Of a stretch of DNA of 24,000 nucleotides, positions 2,903 through 14,271 are shown one piece after another. The position numbers and the translations under genes are program-made. Below the pieces are notes generated by a model. The model made no database searches and had not been told where the DNA came from. It worked only from the letters and a program-made list of their open reading frames with translations. The stretch is from Bacillota bacterium (GTDB lineage: Bacteria > Bacillota > UBA994 > PWPR01): positions 7,751-31,750 of the forward strand of contig JANQLZ010000052.1 in assembly GCA_028280325.1 (NCBI GenBank). The letters are read 5' to 3'. Within the stretch, counting starts at the first letter, position 1. Each line of letters opens with the position of its first letter.

Positions 2903-3035
2903 TAGTGTTCTCAGGGTTGTAAAGTTTTAAGTTTATCAAGGATAGGCAAAGTTTCAAGAATAATGTACCTAGGCCCATTATAAGAAAACCATAGTCTATA
3001 ATGGTAGTTGAGATGTAGAGTTGAGAGGAAAAATA

Positions 3036-3389
3036 ATGAAAGATCCAATAAACATTGAAGCAATGCTAAAGATGTCACAAGATCTCTGGGAGAAGAATAA
3101 AAACAATTGGTCACCGATGGAACCTGAGCATGGTCGCACATTCATATTGTACATGATTGAAGAAATAGGAGAAGTGATATCCATCATCAAAAAGAAAGGC
3201 GAAAATCAAATTATGGAGAATCCTGAAGTTAGAGAAAGGTTCATAGAGGAAATGTGCGATGTGATGATGTACTATTCGGATGTTTTAAATCGATTTGGAA
3301 TTAGCTCTAAAGAATATAGTGAGGTATACAATAAAAAATTTCAAAGCAACATTACAAGAGACTATAAAGTAGATCATGAGAACAGTTAG
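3036..3389 (+). CDS. MazG-like nucleotide pyrophosphohydrolase (small all-alpha NTP-PPase)
   Basis: The ORF track opens at TTG 3021, but ATG 3036 lies 6 nt after SD gagagga (3023-3029). Paired acidic helices EEIGEV and EEMCDVMMY are typical of the MazG/NTP-PPase fold. Size is about 117 aa. Confidence 0.6.
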   Translation: MKDPINIEAMLKMSQDLWEKNKNNWSPMEPEHGRTFILYMIEEIGEVISIIKKKGENQIMENPEVRERFIEEMCDVMMYYSDVLNRFGISSKEYSEVYNKKFQSNITRDYKVDHENS

Positions 3390-3450
3390 CAGTAAATATA
3401 GAGTGCTTACACCCCGGGTCCCCTAATTGGATCACAGTAAACGTCTTTAA

Positions 3451-3486
3451 GACCCACTCAAAATGAGATTTTGAGTGGGTCTTTTG
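3451..3486 (+). terminator. Rho-independent terminator after the MazG-like gene
   Basis: Perfect 14-bp stem GACCCACTCAAAAT / ATTTTGAGTGGGTC with a 3-nt loop (GAG), followed by TTTTG. It lies between convergent genes. Confidence 0.7.
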
Positions 3487-3518
3487 TATCAGATTATAAT
3501 AATTGTTTAATAAGGTGA

Positions 3519-4466
3519 TTATAGACTCAAAACATAATCGTTAAAAGTATTTTCCAGGTCTGTAAGCAGCTCGAGCTTAGCTATCACTTTTTCTAATTTA
3601 TTTGCCTGAAGATAAGTTTGAGTAGCGCCAAATGCCTTAGCTTTGTTCAAAAAGATATTAGCCAGCTCTTGGTCGTAATCCTTAAAAAAGTTATAGTAGT
3701 CAGAGCATCTTCTGGCTGCCAGTTGAAAACTAAAGAATCTCAGATTATTCTCTACATGAATGGGTAGATTACCTTGTTGCATGACCTTTTTCATATAATT
3801 AAAGGCATTGGCTCCTGTAATTAAACTATTCTGCAAATTATCTTCACCGGCAATGGCGTTTTTCAATCTTGTTATGACATTTGATTTAATTTGGATATCG
3901 TCAGTAGCCCTGACTCTGTTGAATTTTCCCCACATCGAGTATGATCCACTTTTATACACTATTTTTTCGGCGAAACAGGATTCCATAAATATCTCAACAG
4001 GTAGATGTACAAACGGGAACCCTGCTGGATCGTGGAAGTAAATATTGTACTCATCTATATCATAAACAGCAACATAGTGATCAACACCATTCAAGTCCTG
4101 GTGATTAGGATTGCTGATCAAGTAGCCCATGTCTAAGGGGCCGACAATTACAGGTCCGCCCGTCAGGAGATCGTGTAATTTTCTCAGTGCTTTTTCCCTA
4201 TGATTTCCTTCACAATTACTATCGAAATACCTTCCATAACGAAGTCCGAGGTTATCCAAGGCAAAGCTGATAGCTTCTTCTGGATCAAGCATTGGGCTTG
4301 AAAAGAAAGGAACGCTGTTCTCGCCTTTAGTCCAAAACGCACTGAATCCAATCATCATTAAACTCTCTAAGTAACTTGAATGATACTCATAATCAAATGA
4401 CTGTAACACCATTGAGGTAGAGTTAGCGTAACAATAGTGTCCAGATCCGACATAATTTAAGTTCAT
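3519..4466 (-). CDS. BtrH-N-like papain-fold cysteine peptidase/acyltransferase with helical C-terminal domain (DUF4872-like)
   Basis: 315 aa. N-terminal GSGHYCYANS (candidate nucleophile Cys), later GVDHYVAVYDIDEYNIYFHDP (His/Asp region), then an all-helical C-terminus. Strong SD aaggagag upstream of ATG 4466. The family assignment is from memory of the domain layout. Confidence 0.45.
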   Translation of the reverse strand: MNLNYVGSGHYCYANSTSMVLQSFDYEYHSSYLESLMMIGFSAFWTKGENSVPFFSSPMLDPEEAISFALDNLGLRYGRYFDSNCEGNHREKALRKLHDLLTGGPVIVGPLDMGYLISNPNHQDLNGVDHYVAVYDIDEYNIYFHDPAGFPFVHLPVEIFMESCFAEKIVYKSGSYSMWGKFNRVRATDDIQIKSNVITRLKNAIAGEDNLQNSLITGANAFNYMKKVMQQGNLPIHVENNLRFFSFQLAARRCSDYYNFFKDYDQELANIFLNKAKAFGATQTYLQANKLEKVIAKLELLTDLENTFNDYVLSL

Positions 4467-4516
4467 AATACTCTCCTTAATTTACTTTTTGTGTTAAGCT
4501 TATTATATAAGTCTAT

Positions 4517-4535
4517 TACGACATATACTGTCGTA
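4517..4535. promoter_or_regulatory. Inverted repeat, candidate operator of the WYL regulator
   Basis: TACGACA-tatac-TGTCGTA (perfect 7-bp arms) in the 91-bp divergent intergenic region. It sits just downstream of a TATATA -10-like element (4504-4509; TTTACT at 4481-4486 is 17 nt upstream). Confidence 0.35.
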
Positions 4536-4557
4536 GTTGAGGAAAAAGGTGTTCAAA

Positions 4558-5501
4558 TGAATAGGTTTAAGAGGCTTTATACAATTTTACAGACGATAAA
4601 TCGAAAAAAGAAATTTACTGCCCGGGAACTGGCTGAGGAGTTCAATGTTTCGGTAAGAACTATTCAAAGAGATTTATTGGAGCTTGCGGATCTTGGTGTC
4701 AGTTTGTATGCTACCGTTGGTAATTCAGGAGGATATGAAGTTGTAACTGAGAGAGTTTTACCTCCGGTATCTTTCACCGTGAATGAAGCTACAGCGATGT
4801 TTTTCGCTTATAAGTCTTTAGAGAATTACAATCAGCTACCATTTGATATTGAGAGTATTTCGGCATTAGAGAAGCTGTATAACTGTTTACCTGCAGATGC
4901 TAAAGAGAACATAGACAGTATGAGAGATAAAGTCATGTTTTGGTCGCCGCCAAGAGAGAGAACTCTGGAACATCTAAAATCAGTCTTTGAAGCAGTGCTC
5001 AGCTCCAATACGATACAGATTAAATATGTTTCTACAAACAAGACTAAAGCGAGGGTGATACAACCATTTGGTCTGTACACTCAACATGGCTACTGGTATG
5101 CTACGGCCTATTGTTTTAAGAATCAGGAGTTAAGGCAGTTTAGAGTAGACAGAATTAGCGAAGTGGAGTCATCTACCCAGGAGCCATTAGATCAGATTCA
5201 AAAGCTAAAGCTGGAGGATTGGTTTGAAATCCCCCAGAGTAGACTGACAGAGGAATTGCTTGTAGAACTTACAGGCGAGGGTGTCAGGGTGTGTGAGCTG
5301 GAACCTTATCTGGCAAAATACATTGAAAAGAAAGGCGATGGTACAGCTTTTATCTCCTGTAAAATACAAAGAAGTGATCTAAATTACTATGCAAATTTCT
5401 TTCTCAGTGCTGGCAAAGGAGCAAAAGTGATAAGTCCCATAACTTTGTGTGAACTGATTATTGAGAAAATTAAGGATATCGGTACTGTTTACAAAGTATG
5501 A
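4558..5501 (+). CDS. WYL-domain transcriptional regulator (YafY family: HTH-WYL-C-terminal extension)
   Basis: The ORF track opens at 4491, but ATG 4558 follows SD gaggaaaaagg. HTH is ARELAEEFNVSVRTIQRDL. WYL core is HGYWYATAYCFKNQELRQFRVDRI. Confidence 0.82.
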
Positions 5502-7629: not shown

Positions 7630-8178
7630 ATGTTGCCTAAGTTATATTACCAAATTAAAGGTAATCAAAGTATAAAAATAAGTTTAGAAGAATTATTTGA
7701 TTTCATAACAACAGAACCAACTAATACAGATCAATATTGGTTTAATACTGAAGAAACACTTATTATACTGGCAGCAAATGCTGCTGGTGGAATTTATGCA
7801 GCCATAGAAAAGGGAGATAACATAGAGAAGTTTCCAATAGTGTATATTAGTTCTGAAGGGCAGGCTGGCAAAATAGCTAAATCGTTCAGCGAGCTAGTTC
7901 AACTTATTATTCAATATCCCTACTGGCATGATATGTTAAGGTTCTCAGATGGGGGAGACTTGGAAAAGATGTTTGAAGCTATTCTATACTTAGAAAATGA
8001 GAGAATAGAGGTTCATTCTGATTATAAAGAAGTTCAGCATCAGATTATTGATAAATTGGGGATTGTCAATCGTAGCGATATATTGGAAAATATGCTAAAA
8101 GTAGTTTTTGAAAAGCCATATTTCAGAGTCTTCTCTGCTAATGATAACACTATGTCTGATCATTTAATCGATATTTAG
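7630..8178 (+). CDS. Hypothetical protein, SMI1/KNR4 (SUKH)-like immunity-type fold suspected
   Basis: 182 aa. The pattern ILAANAAGGIYAAIEKGDNIEKFPIVYISSEGQAGKIAKSFSELVQLI resembles the SUKH core (GG.xY...PVvy...g....iA.sF.efl). Motif reading only. Confidence 0.35.
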   Translation: MLPKLYYQIKGNQSIKISLEELFDFITTEPTNTDQYWFNTEETLIILAANAAGGIYAAIEKGDNIEKFPIVYISSEGQAGKIAKSFSELVQLIIQYPYWHDMLRFSDGGDLEKMFEAILYLENERIEVHSDYKEVQHQIIDKLGIVNRSDILENMLKVVFEKPYFRVFSANDNTMSDHLIDI

Positions 8179-8595
8179 GGCAAGAAAATCATTAAGTATT
8201 ATATAAGCAGTTGCCTATAGTAGAGGTGACTGTGTTTTTCAAGTAAACATTTGATATACATAAACTGCTATTTCGGTTCACAGGTGGAATTTAGTAGTCT
8301 TTATTTAAGTTAGTAGAAGTAATTGACTTCAACATTACAATGACTGCTCAACTTTTTCATGGTTTTCTGTTGTGTTTTTACTACCGGCTGTTGGCTATAT
8401 GTTTATGAAAGAATCAATATATATCTGTTTGATATTTTACTGCCTTTTTTATTTAATGACATTAAAATAATGCAAAATTTGAAAGCAATAAGAAAGGTGA
8501 TAATCCCACTAACTTAATTGACATTGGGTGGAACAGAGATGGAGTGTAAAGCTTAAAACATGAGAATAGAGAATAACTGAGAGGACGTGGTACAA

Positions 8596-9435
8596 ATGAA
8601 GGTTATTTTAAGCAGGAAAGGATTTGATTCTGGAACAGGGGGCTATGCCAGTCCCATAATGCCAGATGGAACATTGCTTTCGTTACCTATTCCAGACTCT
8701 TTTTCAGCTGTTAAATACACAGATATAAATTACAATGGAAGTAGTTATCATACTATAATGAGCTCTTTGAAAGGTGATTATTTAAAAAAAGGCGGAAAGA
8801 AAAGTGTGTTAACTCCAAATTGTACATGTCACTTTGATCCCGACTTGATGAGGAATGCCCTTCCCAGAGAAGAGGGCTGGCGAGGGCTTTTTGGGCAAAT
8901 TGATCGAGTGCAGTCTCATTTAGTAAATCAGGGAATTGAAGAAGGTGATTTGTTTCTTTTCTTTGGTTGGTTTAGAAAAACAATAGTAAGAAATGGTGAG
9001 CTGAAGTTTGATCCCAAAGATAGATTCGGTCGACATATAATTTATGGCTATCTGCAAATTGACCAAATTATTCGAGCAGATAGCGAGAAGAAGCTTGAAA
9101 AATGGATAATGCATCATCCCCATGCATTGGCAAGTAGATTAAGTAGATTTAATAATACGATATACATCTCTAAGGAAAGCCTGACGTTTATCGATAATAA
9201 TCCAGGGTTTGGTGTTTTTAAGTATGCGAGTCATCGCGTATTGACAAAAGCCGGTGAGAAAAACAGATCTTATTGGGGACTTCCAGAGGAGTTTAAGAGC
9301 CTTACTATCTCATGCCATAAGCAAAGTAATTGGCAAGACGGCTACTTCAAATCAAATGCCAGAGGCCAAGAGTTTGTAATCCAGCAAAATCAAATGGTCA
9401 GGCAATGGGTAAAAACACTTTTTAGGAAAGGATGA
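8596..9435 (+). CDS. Conserved hypothetical protein, possibly Nmad3-like (nucleotide-modification-associated domain)
   Basis: The ORF track starts at GTG 8587. ATG 8596 is 10 nt after SD gagagga (8579-8585). N-terminus is MKVILSRKGFDSGTGGYASPIMPDGTLLSLPIPD. The family name is an unverified recollection. Confidence 0.3.
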   Translation: MKVILSRKGFDSGTGGYASPIMPDGTLLSLPIPDSFSAVKYTDINYNGSSYHTIMSSLKGDYLKKGGKKSVLTPNCTCHFDPDLMRNALPREEGWRGLFGQIDRVQSHLVNQGIEEGDLFLFFGWFRKTIVRNGELKFDPKDRFGRHIIYGYLQIDQIIRADSEKKLEKWIMHHPHALASRLSRFNNTIYISKESLTFIDNNPGFGVFKYASHRVLTKAGEKNRSYWGLPEEFKSLTISCHKQSNWQDGYFKSNARGQEFVIQQNQMVRQWVKTLFRKG

Positions 9436-10394
9436 GAAAAATAGAAAAGAGTAAATTCTATGGATTATGTTTACAAGGGAAAATCCATAAGGCAATAGCC
9501 TATTTGGAAAGCTTGCAACCTCAAACAGAAGAGGTGAAAGATTTAAAAACAAAGTACACAAGACGATTTCTACTAAGGCAGGAAGAGGTAATACCCAAAA
9601 CAGATGATCCATGGATTGAAATAGTTTTGTCATCTTATCGCAACTATTATTTAGCTGTATTAACTGGATATGATGTGAAGCTGGCTGAAGAACGATTAAT
9701 TGCAGAACTGTCATCATGTTTAGCTGGTTCTATCTATTATGCAATAGATGCAATTGAGAAAGAACTTAAATATAAATTCCAAGAAAAAGGTTATAGCTTC
9801 TTAGGTGGTGATACGTCGCCTTTTTATGGCCCATATATATGGAAGCATACGGAACAGAAATCTTACCAGGTAAAAATACCTGATGGAGTTCAAAAAGTCA
9901 ATGTTTTTTACATCTCCGATTTCCTGATGATCAGCTGGGCCTATTTTGCAACATTTGGAGTAGTCTATGCGGGCGGCTGGGCTAAAGAAGAGGGACTATA
10001 TTATGTTGTCAGAGAGGATACTGCAATCGATGATACTTCTGTAGACTTTGTAACATGTTTTCTTAAACATGAAGCACAACATCTTTATGATTTTAAACAT
10101 AACCCTTCACTAAAAGGCTATCAACTGGAATATAGAGCTAAACTGGTAGAGCTTATTTATTACCCCAATAATAAAAACTTGCTTGAGAAGTTTCATTTTG
10201 AGGCAGCAAATGATAGTGCTTTACCTCATTCCTATGCATCGCACCTAATTATGGAGGAGTATATAAAGAAGCTCAATATTCTTAATCCTATGAACTGGTG
10301 GCAATATTTTGAGGAGTCGGTGTTACGTCAAATAGCAGTTGAGTTATTTAAGGAGAGTTTGAATACTTTAACCGTGTCCACATCTGACATGTAA
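9432..10394 (+). CDS. Hypothetical protein with HExxH (gluzincin-like) metallopeptidase motif
   Basis: 320 aa. Start overlaps the upstream stop in ATGA (9432-9435). H213-E-A-Q-H217 (nt 10068-10082) with Glu residues at 233 and 240 as possible third ligands. Helical N-terminal half. Confidence 0.35.
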   Translation: MRKIEKSKFYGLCLQGKIHKAIAYLESLQPQTEEVKDLKTKYTRRFLLRQEEVIPKTDDPWIEIVLSSYRNYYLAVLTGYDVKLAEERLIAELSSCLAGSIYYAIDAIEKELKYKFQEKGYSFLGGDTSPFYGPYIWKHTEQKSYQVKIPDGVQKVNVFYISDFLMISWAYFATFGVVYAGGWAKEEGLYYVVREDTAIDDTSVDFVTCFLKHEAQHLYDFKHNPSLKGYQLEYRAKLVELIYYPNNKNLLEKFHFEAANDSALPHSYASHLIMEEYIKKLNILNPMNWWQYFEESVLRQIAVELFKESLNTLTVSTSDM

Positions 10395-10458: not shown

Positions 10459-11103
10459 ATGAAGCAATATATTAATCAGGTATCAGAGATTTGGGGTTTA
10501 GGCAGCATCACTGTTAAAAACCTCAGCTCTAAAGGACAAAGAGCAGTACATATAATTCAAACAGACGGTGGTAATTATATCCTGAAATTCTTCCCCCCAA
10601 AAATTAAAGAGAATTTAATTATTAAATATACAGAATCACTGCGGTACCTTAATACTAAAAATCCAAAATTAGCTCCAGAGATAATTGAAACATTTAACGG
10701 AGATTTATATTCAGAAATCAATGGCCAATTTGCATATCTGATGGAAAAAATAGCAGGAAGACCGCTTCAGGAGAATATTGAAGATGAGTACAGGCTGGGT
10801 CAGGCTTCCGCCCGACTACATCAATTTTCTGATTACAATATTCCCAGTTGTTTGGATATTGACAGTATAATATCAGACATGAAAACCAAGTTTGCAGAGT
10901 ACCAGTTTAAAAGTGAATACAATAAAATTATTGATTCATTACCTGATTTTAATAAGTTTAAACAGACCTTTATCCATACTGATATCGGGCCGCATAATGC
11001 CATGATAGCAGATAGTAATCAAGTAATATTTGTTGATTGGGATGATGCCGGTCAGGGTTCTCCTTATATCGATATTGGGTATCCACTGATTACCCAGTTA
11101 TGA
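10459..11103 (+). CDS. APH/choline-kinase-fold phosphotransferase, N-terminal and catalytic part of a split gene
   Basis: 214 aa. Catalytic loop FIHTDIGPHNAMI (HxDxxxxN) and metal-binding FVDWDDAG. Ends at TGA 11101-11103, right after the activation-segment region. SD aaaggagag. Confidence 0.65.
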   Translation: MKQYINQVSEIWGLGSITVKNLSSKGQRAVHIIQTDGGNYILKFFPPKIKENLIIKYTESLRYLNTKNPKLAPEIIETFNGDLYSEINGQFAYLMEKIAGRPLQENIEDEYRLGQASARLHQFSDYNIPSCLDIDSIISDMKTKFAEYQFKSEYNKIIDSLPDFNKFKQTFIHTDIGPHNAMIADSNQVIFVDWDDAGQGSPYIDIGYPLITQL

Positions 11104-11336
11104 ATAAGAGAACAAAAGAAATAAAATTTAAGCAAAATGTAGCAAAGGCCTTTTATCAGGGGTACAACTCAATTTTACCAATTAAGAAAGAGGAGCTGGA
11201 ATTAATTTATTATGGCGCAGTGTTTATGCAGCTCATGTATATGCCCTGCTTTGGAAATGATGCTGTAGAAGATATGTGGGCGATTCTGAAGTTTAGTATT
11301 GATAATAAGGGAATTCTGTTATCAGCTATTCCTTAA
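11100..11336 (+). CDS. C-terminal part of the same APH-fold phosphotransferase (other frame)
   Basis: 78 aa. FYQGYNSILPIKKEELELIYYGAVFMQLMY looks like the helical C-lobe of APH-type kinases. ATG 11100 overlaps the upstream TGA (ATGA). 214+78 aa approximates a full-length enzyme. Confidence 0.5.
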   Translation: MNKRTKEIKFKQNVAKAFYQGYNSILPIKKEELELIYYGAVFMQLMYMPCFGNDAVEDMWAILKFSIDNKGILLSAIP

Positions 11337-12705: not shown

Positions 12706-14271
12706 ATGCAAATAAAGTTAAGGAGCTATCAGATTGAGGCTGTTGAGAAGATTAATGCTTTCTTTTGGTCAGATGTTAATAAGGCCAAGATACATTTAGC
12801 TTCTGGTTTGGGAAAATCAAGTATTATTATATCTTCTATAGAAAGAATACTTGAAAAGAAAAAAAATGCTTTAATACTAATTCTATTCTCTAGGCGAGTT
12901 ATTTGTTATCAGTTTGAAGATGCAGTTAGAAAGGTATTATTGAATGTGCGGATTTCTAAAAACCTTAATGACTCAGAGTTTAGTAATGTTTGCATAACAA
13001 CATATCAAGCGTTCTATAGATTTAGACCAGAAAAGTTAGAAATTTTTGATTTGATTATTTGTGATGAAGCACATTTTTTAAAAAGTGAAAAACATAAAAT
13101 ACTCTTTGATAGTAGTCTAACGAAGTACTTAGGTATAATGAGTACCGAATCATATTCAGAAGGGTGGTTTAGAGATGTAAGGTGTATTTATGTGTACACA
13201 TTGAGAGAGGCATTTAATGATGGATATTTTGAGCACCCCAATGAAAGACAACTAGTTGAGAATTTTTTTGTACCACTATTATCAACACAGAGGTTTAAGA
13301 ATGTACAAACTGGAGTATTATTAAGTGATTATATAAAGGTTGATATGTCAGCAAACAAAGGAGAAGATATTTTTGTTTTTGAAGTAAAAGTTTATAGAGG
13401 ACTTTATAATCCACATAGTACAATAAATGCTGCATTAAACCAAATTATTAGCTATAAAGAAGCTTTAGATAGCCAACCACGATATAAAAAGATCTCATTT
13501 GTTATTATTCTTTTGTGTAAAGTAGAGGAATCTTTTATCCATGAGGTATTTGACAAGTATAAAATTACTATATGGGACATTAGTAATATAATATATCTCT
13601 GCAACAACAACAATGACCTTATAAACTCACTAAGCAAGTATTTACCGTATTCTATAATTGACATTAAAGGACAGGTACCAATAAACCTGAGTTATAATGT
13701 TGGTAAAAGGACTTCATATAAGACCAAAACTCCATTTGCTAAATTAGAATACTTTCAAAATAAGCTTGATGAATGCCAAAAAGGAAGAAATAGTGCTAGG
13801 ACTTATGAAATTATTTGTACAGAAATAGTAAATTATCTGTTCCACACAGAGTTTACACAAATATCTGAGCAACATAGAACAGGTGATGATATGTTCTGTA
13901 TGGATTTATTATGTGGATTGAAGGGTACAACAGAGTTCTGGAAATTCTTGATGCGTTTTTATAATACAAAGTTTATAGTCTTTGAGTACAAAAACTATTC
14001 TGATTATATTTCTCAAAATTTGATTTATACAACAGAAAAGTATTTATTTTCTATGTCTTTGAGAAATGTAGCATTCATAATATCAAGGCTTGGATTCAGT
14101 CCCAATGCGAAAAAAGCAGCTTTGGGATGTTTAAAGGAGCATGGTAAACTAATAATCAGTTTAAATGACGAAGACCTACTTAAAATGATAGCAATAAAGG
14201 TGAATGGTGAGGAGCCATCTGATTATCTCTTATATAAAGTGGAGAATTTATTAATGTCAGTAGATAAATAA
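12706..14271 (+). CDS. SF2 (ResIII-type) helicase N-lobe fused to two PD-(D/E)xK restriction-endonuclease-like modules
   Basis: 521 aa. LRSYQ (5-9), SGLGKS (33-38), ITTYQ (97-101), DEAH (120-123), MSTE (145-148); no helicase motifs IV-VI. D213...E226-V-K228 plus ITIWDISNIIYL. D400...E427-Y-K429. SD aggggga. Confidence 0.6.
   Translation: MQIKLRSYQIEAVEKINAFFWSDVNKAKIHLASGLGKSSIIISSIERILEKKKNALILILFSRRVICYQFEDAVRKVLLNVRISKNLNDSEFSNVCITTYQAFYRFRPEKLEIFDLIICDEAHFLKSEKHKILFDSSLTKYLGIMSTESYSEGWFRDVRCIYVYTLREAFNDGYFEHPNERQLVENFFVPLLSTQRFKNVQTGVLLSDYIKVDMSANKGEDIFVFEVKVYRGLYNPHSTINAALNQIISYKEALDSQPRYKKISFVIILLCKVEESFIHEVFDKYKITIWDISNIIYLCNNNNDLINSLSKYLPYSIIDIKGQVPINLSYNVGKRTSYKTKTPFAKLEYFQNKLDECQKGRNSARTYEIICTEIVNYLFHTEFTQISEQHRTGDDMFCMDLLCGLKGTTEFWKFLMRFYNTKFIVFEYKNYSDYISQNLIYTTEKYLFSMSLRNVAFIISRLGFSPNAKKAALGCLKEHGKLIISLNDEDLLKMIAIKVNGEEPSDYLLYKVENLLMSVDK

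What the first reader, a model, noticed from the sequence alone, without database searches (positions are those of the whole stretch)
8587..10394. Translationally coupled pair of unknown function: Nmad3-like protein plus HExxH protein behind a 400-bp AT-rich leader
Seen: a 279-aa protein begins MKVILSRKGFDSGTGGYASPIMPDGTLLSLPIPD, with later GDLFLFFGWFR and HIIYGYLQI segments. Its stop overlaps, in ATGA (9432-9435), the start of a 320-aa protein. That second protein carries H213-E-A-Q-H217 with E233/E240 downstream, a gluzincin-like spacing. The pair is preceded by 408 nt without an ORF of 60 aa or more (8179-8586). It is followed after 64 nt by the split kinase gene on the same strand. My recollection, which is unverified, is that the N-terminal signature belongs to a family that comparative genomics linked to nucleotide or DNA modification (Nmad3). 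If that is right, modification domain, metallopeptidase-like protein and kinase would form an unusual combination, possibly a nucleic-acid modification or conflict system.
Basis: partly seen in the sequence, partly recalled or inferred. Interest (0 to 1): 0.65.

Follow-up and report, generated by a model that had tools for sequence, protein, structure and literature searches.

The report
Nmad3 gene beside unrelated metallohydrolase gene
Two real genes of unknown function, an Nmad3-family protein and a conserved HExxH metallohydrolase-like protein, overlap by four bases here, but they and the broken kinase gene downstream are not neighbours in any other sampled organism, so this looks like a local chance arrangement and not a new three-gene system.

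Summary
ORF A (8596-9435) is a full-length Nmad3 protein (PF18754, E 3e-67). ORF B (9432-10394) starts inside an ATGA overlap. It belongs to a family of at least 842 clusters with no Pfam, NCBIfam, PADLOC, PHROG or PDB sequence match. H213-E-x-x-H217, D220, E233, R235 and K237 are invariant in this family.

- None of 80 ORF-B loci has an Nmad3 gene within 10 kb.
- None of about 20 independent Nmad3 loci has ORF B.
- Three loci of kinase homologues have neither gene.
- The closest ORF-B locus shares DNA only over 9439-10371. The closest Nmad3 loci share DNA only over 8596-9378.
- The pair recurs only in a 2.3-kb contig that is 100% identical in protein sequence and so is presumably the same organism.
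- The kinase is frameshifted compared with intact homologues of 290-308 aa.

Most likely these are independent accessory genes, co-transcribed by position in a low-GC variable region of a Bacillota chromosome. Nmad3 appears to have a PUA-like (ASCH/EVE) core and sits elsewhere in prophage or mobile-element accessory regions. ORF B has zincin-like topology and is usually a lone gene. Interest is low.

The parts
8179..8595 (+). It includes a terminator-like hairpin of the upstream gene at 8207-8233.
   Evidence: No ORF of 60 aa or more. Terminator-like site 8207-8233. No Rfam family at gathering threshold or at E<=1. MFE z-score +0.69 against shuffles. GC about 0.31.
8596..9435 (+). ORF A: a 279-aa single-domain Nmad3-family protein, complete and carrying all family-invariant residues.
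   Evidence: Pfam PF18754 E 3.1e-67, model positions 1-247 of 247. At least 5036 homologous clusters. Invariant residues D11, H79, D81, P82, D83, Q101, D118, H176, W227 and G257-Q-E-F260 are present. AF2 pLDDT 94.6. Weak fold matches are dominated by ASCH/EVE/YTH PUA-like domains.
9379..9438 (+). Junction between two independently inherited homology blocks. It contains the ATGA stop/start overlap at 9432-9435.
   Evidence: DNA similarity to the closest Nmad3 loci ends at 9378. DNA similarity to the closest ORF-B locus begins at 9439. The ATGA is read directly from the sequence.
9432..10394 (+). ORF B: a 320-aa member of an unnamed conserved family with HExxH...E (zincin-like predicted metallohydrolase). 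HEAQH is at nt 10068-10082 and LEYRAKLVE at nt 10125-10151.
   Evidence: At least 409 clusters, 842 at 50% identity and 502 loci in species-representative genomes. Invariant H213, E214, H217, D220, E233, R235, K237. AF2 pLDDT 93.1 with an N-terminal helical domain, a 5-strand sheet, the HExxH helix and the Glu helix. No match in Pfam, NCBIfam, PADLOC, PHROGs or PDB sequences.
10459..11103 (+). N-terminal 214-aa fragment of an APH/CotS-type phosphotransferase gene.
   Evidence: PF01636 E 2.7e-18 and CotS subfamily E 3.7e-16, below cut-off. Intact homologues are single proteins of 290-308 aa.
11100..11336 (+). C-terminal 78-aa fragment of the same kinase in another reading frame. The frameshift lies near 11098-11103.
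   Evidence: Weak match to the CotS C-terminal part. The joined 214+78 aa sequence aligns over 96-100% of its length to intact homologues. The junction sequence CAGTTATGAATAAG was read.

Best explanation
These are three independent accessory genes that happen to lie head to tail in a low-GC variable stretch of a Bacillota chromosome. They are not a dedicated system.

ORF A is a canonical stand-alone Nmad3 protein.
- It seems to be built around a PUA-like (ASCH/EVE-type) barrel, with an invariant cluster of His/Asp/Gln/Glu residues.
- By analogy with ASCH/EVE/YTH domains, I infer that it binds or processes a modified nucleotide or nucleic acid.
- From its other genomic contexts, I infer that it is a cargo gene of prophages and mobile elements.

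ORF B is a cytoplasmic member of an unnamed but widespread HExxH...E family.
- I infer it is a zinc-dependent hydrolase or peptidase, with H213 and H217 plus E233 (or E240) as metal ligands and E214 as the general base.
- It normally occurs as a lone gene.

In this lineage the two coding sequences were brought together, with the junction at 9379-9438. They now share an ATGA stop/start overlap. They are therefore probably co-transcribed and possibly translationally coupled, with no implied functional link. The downstream kinase is a frameshifted, probably dead APH/CotS-type gene.

Shown here: the family assignments, residue conservation, lack of co-occurrence, homology block boundaries and the frameshift. 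Inferred: the biochemical activities, co-transcription and absence of functional interaction.
For: Family identity:
- Nmad3 by Pfam.
- ORF-B family size and invariant residues.

No co-occurrence:
- 0 of 80 ORF-B loci carry Nmad3 within 10 kb, and no neighbour family is shared beyond lineage synteny.
- No window protein other than ORF B is a recurrent neighbour in those loci.
- Of the Nmad3 loci examined, only L096 has ORF B. L096 is 100% identical in protein sequence and so presumably the same organism.
- The loci of three kinase homologues have neither gene.

Independent inheritance:
- The closest ORF-B locus (80% DNA identity) matches the window only over 9439-10371, with unrelated DNA upstream.
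- The closest Nmad3 loci (about 70% DNA identity) match only over 8596-9378.

ORF B is usually autonomous:
- In 57 of 80 loci the upstream neighbour is on the opposite strand or more than 100 nt away.
- 35 of 147 diverse family members have signal-peptide or lipobox-like N-termini. This fits a general hydrolase better than a nucleic-acid system component.

Nmad3 neighbours differ from locus to locus: serine recombinases, holin/lysin genes, Mrr, DNA methylases, Nmad2, AbiJ-NTD4, HNH and ArdC.

Other points:
- The kinase is disrupted compared with intact homologues.
- GC is 0.29-0.37 across about 6.5-15 kb, against about 0.40-0.42 in the flanking core genes.
Against: - The 4-nt ATGA overlap, with no terminator between the genes, means the two are very probably expressed together here. 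Selection could have fixed that arrangement for a reason.
- In 7 of about 18 informative Nmad3 loci, a same-strand gene follows within 60 nt or overlaps. In three of these (the L105/L106 clade and L104) it is the same 4-nt overlap. Nmad3 may therefore habitually work with a downstream partner.
- Sampling is limited. Only the best 80 of 502 ORF-B loci were inspected, and only about 20 of several thousand Nmad3 loci.
- No interaction prediction or expression data could be obtained.
Confidence: 0.7

Rival explanations
1. Nmad3 is the constant core of a polymorphic two-gene conflict module. A PUA-like reader or enzyme for modified nucleic acid is paired with interchangeable, translationally coupled downstream partners. 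In this lineage the partner is the HExxH hydrolase, acting as a proteolytic effector or regulator.
For: - Downstream genes that overlap Nmad3 or lie within 60 nt belong to different families in different loci. They are HI_0787_N in the closest clade (4-nt overlap), Nmad2 (4-nt overlap), a weak MazG-like match (E 0.003, below cut-off), AbiJ-NTD4 and unknown proteins.
- Nmad3 also carries variable C-terminal extensions.
- Its contexts are conflict-related: prophage ends next to recombinases, Mrr, HNH, ArdC and DNA methylases.
Against: - ORF B is mostly monocistronic elsewhere and never sits next to Nmad3.
- About a third of Nmad3 loci have no same-strand downstream partner at all.
- Variable neighbours are what any cargo gene in mobile regions would show.
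- ORF-B relatives are often exported proteins.
Confidence: 0.2
2. Nmad3, the metallopeptidase-like protein and the kinase together form a nucleic-acid modification or defence system.
For: All three are on the same strand with short spacing (a 4-nt overlap, then a 64-nt gap) and no predicted terminator between them. The family name Nmad3 links it to nucleotide modification.
Against: - There is no co-occurrence, whichever of the three genes the survey starts from.
- The kinase is frameshifted.
- No PADLOC model matches ORF A or ORF B.
- Neither protein is found in 50,697 isolated phage genomes.
Confidence: 0.04
3. The juxtaposition is an assembly chimera joining two unrelated contigs at 9379-9438.
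For: Homology blocks to the nearest relatives break exactly at the junction.
Against: The same Nmad3, ORF B and kinase-start arrangement, with 100% identical proteins, occurs in an independently assembled contig from another sequencing run (Logan SRR20820735, 2325 bp). The reading frames are intact across the junction.
Confidence: 0.02

Closest known systems
Pfam PF18754, Nmad3 (nucleotide modification associated domain 3)
   Same: Full-length match far above threshold, and all family-invariant residues are present. The length of about 280 aa is typical.
   Different: No nucleotide-modification genes such as Nmad2 sit next to it here, whereas two other loci have Nmad2 adjacent. It lacks the roughly 120-aa C-terminal extension of its closest relatives. 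In the literature I could search, no member has an experimentally shown function. The NMAD domain in the DefensePredictor paper (PMC13092281) is Nmad2, not Nmad3.
ASCH / EVE / YTH domains (PUA-like superfamily that reads or processes modified bases)
   Same: The top structural neighbours of the Nmad3 model, in both PDB and BFVD, are ASCH (5y7d, 6kir, 5y6b), EVE (2hd9, 3eop) and YTH (4u8t) domains and phage ASCH proteins.
   Different: All matches are statistically weak (E >= 0.07, TM 0.2-0.35). Nmad3 is about twice the size and has its own invariant His/Asp cluster. There is no sequence-level similarity.
Gluzincin metallopeptidases (clan MA; for example M1 and M61 aminopeptidases and thermolysin-like enzymes)
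   Same: Invariant HExxH on a helix that follows a beta-sheet, with invariant Glu residues on the next helix. The weak structural hit list is enriched for zinc peptidases (4l7a, M1, M61).
   Different: No significant sequence or fold match to any peptidase family. The HExxH-to-Glu spacing is short, with 15 residues between H217 and E233. The N-terminal helical domain is unique. Activity and metal binding are untested.
Nmad2-Nmad3 gene pairs and prophage-end cargo loci
   Same: Nmad3 is a small accessory gene in a variable, low-GC region. In several other loci a downstream gene is also tightly coupled to it.
   Different: Here the partner is an HExxH protein seen with Nmad3 nowhere else. No recombinase, lysis or phage genes lie in the 24-kb window.
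APH/CotS-family phosphotransferases (PF01636)
   Same: The N-fragment matches the APH model, and the catalytic HxDxxxxN and DWD motifs are present.
   Different: The gene is split by a frameshift, whereas homologues are intact. Scores are far below the CotS and other equivalog cut-offs.

Membership tests
Nmad3 (PF18754) | Whole-domain match to the family HMM above the gathering score | tested here: met
   227.2 bits against a cut-off of 27, E 3.1e-67, model positions 1-247 of 247
Nmad3 (PF18754) | Family-invariant residues retained | tested here: met
   20 invariant columns in 120 sequences, including the window protein: D11, H79-x-D81-P-D83, Q101, D118, H176, W227, GQEF257-260
Nmad3 (PF18754) | Genomic association with nucleotide or DNA-modification genes, the basis of the family's name | tested here: not met
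   No Nmad2, base-modification enzyme or DNA methylase lies next to it in the window. Such neighbours do occur in other loci.
PUA-like fold (ASCH/EVE) | Significant structural similarity to solved ASCH/EVE/YTH domains | tested here: inconclusive
   These folds dominate the top hits, but the best E is 0.088 (PDB) and 0.069 (BFVD), with TM <= 0.35
Zincin / gluzincin metallopeptidase (clan MA) | Conserved HExxH motif | tested here: met
   H213, E214 and H217 are invariant in 120 close and 144 diverse members. HExxH is present in 265 of 267 sequences.
Zincin / gluzincin metallopeptidase (clan MA) | Third metal ligand (Glu) on the helix after the HExxH helix, with a sheet-plus-two-helices core | tested here: inconclusive
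   E233 is invariant and E240 at least 90% conserved, both on helix 229-243, which follows the HExxH helix 204-223 and a 5-strand sheet. The metal-site geometry could not be inspected.
Zincin / gluzincin metallopeptidase (clan MA) | Significant sequence or fold match to a recognised peptidase family | tested here: not met
   No Pfam or NCBIfam hit for the protein or for 144 relatives. The PDB profile search found nothing even at E<=10. Best Foldseek E is 0.83.
Zincin / gluzincin metallopeptidase (clan MA) | Zinc-dependent peptidase activity | not testable with these tools
   Needs purified protein
Conserved multi-gene system (operon of Nmad3 + HExxH protein + kinase) | The component genes co-occur in other genomes | tested here: not met
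   0 of 80 ORF-B loci have Nmad3 or the kinase. Of about 20 Nmad3 loci, only the 100%-identical contig has ORF B. None of the 4 contigs carrying three kinase homologues has either gene.
APH/CotS phosphotransferase | Intact single ORF of about 290-310 aa with an APH domain | tested here: not met
   APH domain E 2.7e-18, but the gene is split into 214 + 78 aa. Homologues are intact at 290-308 aa.
Known anti-phage defence systems (PADLOC-DB 2.0) | Match of ORF A or ORF B to a defence-system model | tested here: not met
   No family at E<=0.1 for either protein

The most novel reading that the evidence does not exclude
Nmad3 would be the conserved sensing or enzymatic core (a PUA-like reader of modified nucleic acid) of a polymorphic, mobile-element-borne conflict module. 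Its downstream, translationally coupled partner would be swappable: HI_0787_N, AbiJ-NTD4, Nmad2, MazG-like and, in this lineage, a zincin-like protease recruited from a normally autonomous family. The window would then show a new effector being captured.
Probability: 0.15. Interest if true: 0.6.

Novelty: new member of a known kind. Interest (0 to 1): 0.22.

Why it matters
If the best explanation holds, this locus matters little as a system. It is a reminder that a 4-nt overlap and an interesting domain name do not make an operon a functional unit.

Two by-products are of modest use.
- Nmad3 is a very large family (at least 5000 clusters across bacteria and archaea) with no characterised member in the literature I could search. 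It models confidently. Its core seems PUA-like (ASCH/EVE), with an invariant His/Asp cluster. It sits repeatedly at prophage ends next to recombinases and restriction, Abi or methylase genes. That makes it a reasonable single-gene candidate for defence or counter-defence screening.
- ORF B defines a family of about 840 clusters with an invariant HExxH...E signature. It has no Pfam model and has both exported and cytoplasmic branches, so it deserves a family definition and a biochemical test.

Tried and rejected
- ORF B has no match in Pfam, NCBIfam, PADLOC or PHROGs. Scanning 144 diverse relatives against Pfam gave only scattered noise: MiaE in 3 members at best E 5e-4, and DUF6782 in 1 member.
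- PDB sequence-profile searches with both families gave nothing even at E<=10.
- Foldseek against PDB and BFVD gave no significant match for either model, so I used only the make-up of the weak hit lists.
- The 320-aa gene that overlaps Nmad3 in the closest clade has the same length as ORF B. I tested it as a possible divergent homologue and rejected it (hhalign probability 0.7%). Its precomputed annotation is PF27257 HI_0787_N.
- I tested the 408-nt leader as a possible riboswitch or leader RNA. It has no Rfam hit and no excess structure.
- tblastn against isolated phage genomes found neither protein. ORF B is absent from plasmids.
The Nmad3 neighbourhood sample therefore stayed small: 13 viral contigs, several exact-protein look-ups and 3 plasmid regions.
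- 'Nmad3' does not appear in the searchable papers in any relevant sense. The NAR 2013 paper that I recall as the origin of the Nmad names was not held under the id I tried. The NMAD domain in DefensePredictor is Nmad2.
- An AlphaFold-Multimer run on the pair was not possible with the available tools.
Full report
**Observation.**
- An ORF runs from GTG 8587 or ATG 8596 to 9435. Homologues begin MK(V/I)ILSRKGFD, so ATG 8596 is the start, giving 279 aa.
- The ORF's stop lies in ATGA at 9432-9435, which also provides the ATG of a 320-aa ORF (9432-10394).
- HEAQH is at residues 213-217 (nt 10068-10082). E233 and E240 lie in LEYRAKLVE.
- Upstream, 8179-8586 has no ORF longer than 52 aa.
- Downstream, after 64 nt, an APH/CotS-type kinase gene is split into 10459-11103 and 11100-11336.
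- The 'AT-rich leader' is ordinary intergenic DNA. A terminator-like hairpin for the upstream gene lies at 8207-8233. There is no Rfam match at gathering threshold or at E<=1. Folding is no better than shuffled sequence (z = +0.69).

**ORF A.**
- ORF A matches Pfam PF18754 (Nmad3) over the whole model: 227 bits against a cut-off of 27, E 3.1e-67.
- The family is large, with at least 5036 clusters at 90% identity across bacteria and archaea.
- The window protein has every invariant residue: D11, H79-x-D81-P-D83, Q101, D118, H176, W227 and G257-Q-E-F260.
- An AF2 model from 120 homologues is very confident (pLDDT 94.6).
- No solved or viral predicted structure matches significantly. However, the top of both hit lists is dominated by PUA-like modules that read or process modified bases. 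These include the ASCH proteins EOLA1, CXorf40A and ZmASCH, the EVE proteins PH1033 and THYN1, YTH domains, the Lon N-domain and phage ASCH/EVE/DUF3850 proteins. E values are 0.07-2 and TM 0.2-0.35.
- I take this as a lead that Nmad3 is built on a PUA-like barrel decorated with a probable His/Asp active or metal site. It is not proof.

**ORF B.** This protein has no match in Pfam, NCBIfam, PADLOC, PHROGs or PDB sequences.
- It belongs to a substantial family: at least 409 clusters at 90% identity, 842 at 50% identity by profile search and 502 loci among species-representative genomes. Most are Bacillota, with some Cloacimonadota, Chloroflexota, Riflebacteria and others.
- H213, E214, H217, D220, E233, R235 and K237 are invariant. 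E240 and H266 are conserved in at least 90% of 144 diverse members. HExxH is present in 265 of 267 sequences.
- The AF2 model is confident (pLDDT 93.1). It shows an N-terminal helical domain, a five-strand sheet, the helix carrying HExxH (204-223) and the next helix carrying E233 and E240 (229-243). This is the order of elements in zincins.
- Foldseek finds nothing significant (best E 0.83). The weak list is enriched for zinc peptidases: 4l7a, M1 aminopeptidases and M61.
- About a quarter of the diverse representatives (35 of 147) have signal-peptide or lipobox-like N-termini. None of the 120 close Bacillota relatives does.
- Rare fusions are to NUDIX and GNAT domains, and to an N-terminal region with a weak AAT-like match below cut-off.
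- No Pfam family covers the core in any consistent way.
- The best functional guess is a zinc hydrolase or peptidase of a family not yet named.

- From the ORF-B side, none of the 80 best loci (10-kb flanks) contains an Nmad3 gene. No neighbour family is shared beyond lineage-specific synteny; the largest cluster covers 19 loci and is an elongation-factor-like GTPase, by my reading of its sequence, first seen in a Neobacillus locus. No window protein other than ORF B is a recurrent neighbour.
- In 57 of those 80 loci the upstream neighbour is on the other strand or more than 100 nt away. ORF B is therefore normally autonomous.
- The only close relative of ORF B (76% aa, 80% DNA identity) shares DNA with the window over 9439-10371 only. 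Its upstream DNA is unrelated and has no Nmad3.
- From the Nmad3 side, I examined 13 viral-collection contigs, contigs from seven exact-protein look-ups and three plasmid regions. Only L096 carries ORF B. L096 is a 2.3-kb contig from another run whose proteins are 100% identical to the window's, so it is presumably the same organism.
- The closest Nmad3 loci (63-67% aa identity) match the window DNA only over 8596-9378.
- The two coding sequences thus have separate histories and meet at 9379-9438.
- From the kinase side, intact homologues are single proteins of 290-308 aa that align over 96-100% of the joined 214+78 aa. The window copy is therefore frameshifted near 11100. Three homologue loci contain neither Nmad3 nor ORF B.
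- L096 shows that the junction is not an assembly artefact.

**Context of Nmad3 elsewhere.** Its neighbours are typical of prophage and mobile-element accessory regions.
- They include large serine recombinases, holin/lysin genes, integrases, replisome organisers, DNA methylases, Mrr, HNH and ArdC.
- Two loci have Nmad2 directly adjacent: L104 with a 4-nt overlap (E 6.6e-56) and L089 (a weaker match). L089 also has DUF1643 next door. L090 has a small overlapping downstream gene with a weak, below-cut-off MazG-like match (E 0.003).
- In the clade closest to the window the order is serine recombinase, then Nmad3 (399 aa, with a C-terminal extension), then a 320-aa HI_0787_N protein overlapping by 4 nt, then a 190-aa protein.
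- That 320-aa protein is unrelated to ORF B (hhalign probability 0.7%).
- Downstream genes in other loci are all different from each other. About a third of loci have no same-strand downstream partner.
- Neither protein is found in 50,697 isolated phage genomes. Nmad3 occurs on six megaplasmids or chromids.

**Window context.** Core genes flank a lower-GC stretch that carries assorted accessory genes.
- The core genes have GC of about 0.40-0.42. They include HflX, an RlmD-like methyltransferase, a YjjI glycyl-radical enzyme with its activase, and KatG (which itself reaches GC 0.50).
- The lower-GC stretch (0.29-0.37) runs from about 6.5 to 15 kb.
- It carries TetR, a weak SUKH-like protein, Nmad3, ORF B, the broken kinase, a 230-aa unknown protein, a 521-aa ResIII/PD-(D/E)XK-like protein and a DNA-alkylation-repair protein.
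- No recombinase or phage structural gene is present.

**Conclusion.**
- The best-supported reading (about 0.7) is that an Nmad3 gene, a zincin-like gene and a decayed kinase gene are independent accessory genes. They have come to lie in one probable transcription unit in this lineage.
- The main rival (about 0.2) is that Nmad3 habitually works with a swappable downstream partner, and that ORF B is the partner captured here. Tight coupling of different downstream genes in 7 of about 18 informative loci keeps this open. ORF B's autonomy elsewhere argues against it.
- An assembly chimera is unlikely (about 0.02).
- Novelty is low: a new member of the known Nmad3 family lies next to a member of an unnamed conserved-hypothetical family.

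Noticed in passing
window 12706-14271 (+): A 521-aa protein in the lowest-GC part of the window (0.29). It has an N-terminal ResIII/DEAD helicase motif region (E 1.4e-18) and a weak PD-(D/E)XK_9 match. Its C-terminal 300 aa match phrog_31260 (E 7.5e-57) and PADLOC candidate PDC-M36A (E 7e-10). It looks like a horizontally acquired helicase-nuclease of a candidate defence type.
   Followed up: partly
window 10459-11336 (+), frameshift near 11098-11103: The APH/CotS-type kinase is split into 214 + 78 aa by a one-base frameshift compared with intact 290-308-aa homologues. The family is rare, with only 34 clusters found. Whether this is a real pseudogene or a sequencing error is unknown.
   Followed up: partly
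L083 4462-7205; L105 42-4402; L106 362-3109: In the closest Nmad3 clade the gene order is conserved across three samples. A large serine recombinase comes first, then Nmad3 (399 aa, with a roughly 120-aa C-terminal extension containing WGLRGDPYLWE). A 320-aa HI_0787_N (PF27257) protein follows, overlapping by 4 nt, and then a 190-aa Zn-ribbon/DUF6438-like protein. This could be a small mobile cassette.
   Followed up: partly
L104 6001-7586 and L089 7311-9550: Nmad3 sits directly next to Nmad2. In a Burkholderia plasmid they overlap by 4 nt and lie next to a metallophosphoesterase and ArdC. In a viral contig the order is Nmad2, Nmad3, DUF1643. These are the only contexts seen that fit the 'nucleotide modification' name.
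   Followed up: partly
window 3021-5501: A small MazG-like pyrophosphohydrolase gene (3021-3389) is followed by a 315-aa unknown gene on the minus strand (3519-4466). That gene lies divergent from an HTH-WYL regulator (4491-5501). WYL regulators often control defence or stress genes. A distant WYL homologue also lies about 1.4 kb upstream of Nmad3 in L089.
   Followed up: no
L082 7371-8295: Upstream of the Nmad3 gene in this long-read metagenome contig lie frameshifted fragments homologous to the window's RlmD-like methyltransferase (1502-2902). This suggests residual synteny between the two organisms. Several other genes in L082 are also split, so assembly indel errors are likely.
   Followed up: no
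window 7630-8178 (+): A 182-aa protein with weak, below-threshold matches to SUKH/SMI1-KNR4 immunity-protein families (E 0.004-0.01). It is followed by the only clear terminator-like hairpin in the region.
   Followed up: no
ORF-B family members P0262, P0273, P0281, P0320 and others: Outside Bacillota many family members carry signal peptides or lipoprotein boxes. A few are fused to a NUDIX or GNAT domain, or to an N-terminal region with a weak AAT-like match. The family therefore spans exported and cytoplasmic forms but has no Pfam model.
   Followed up: partly
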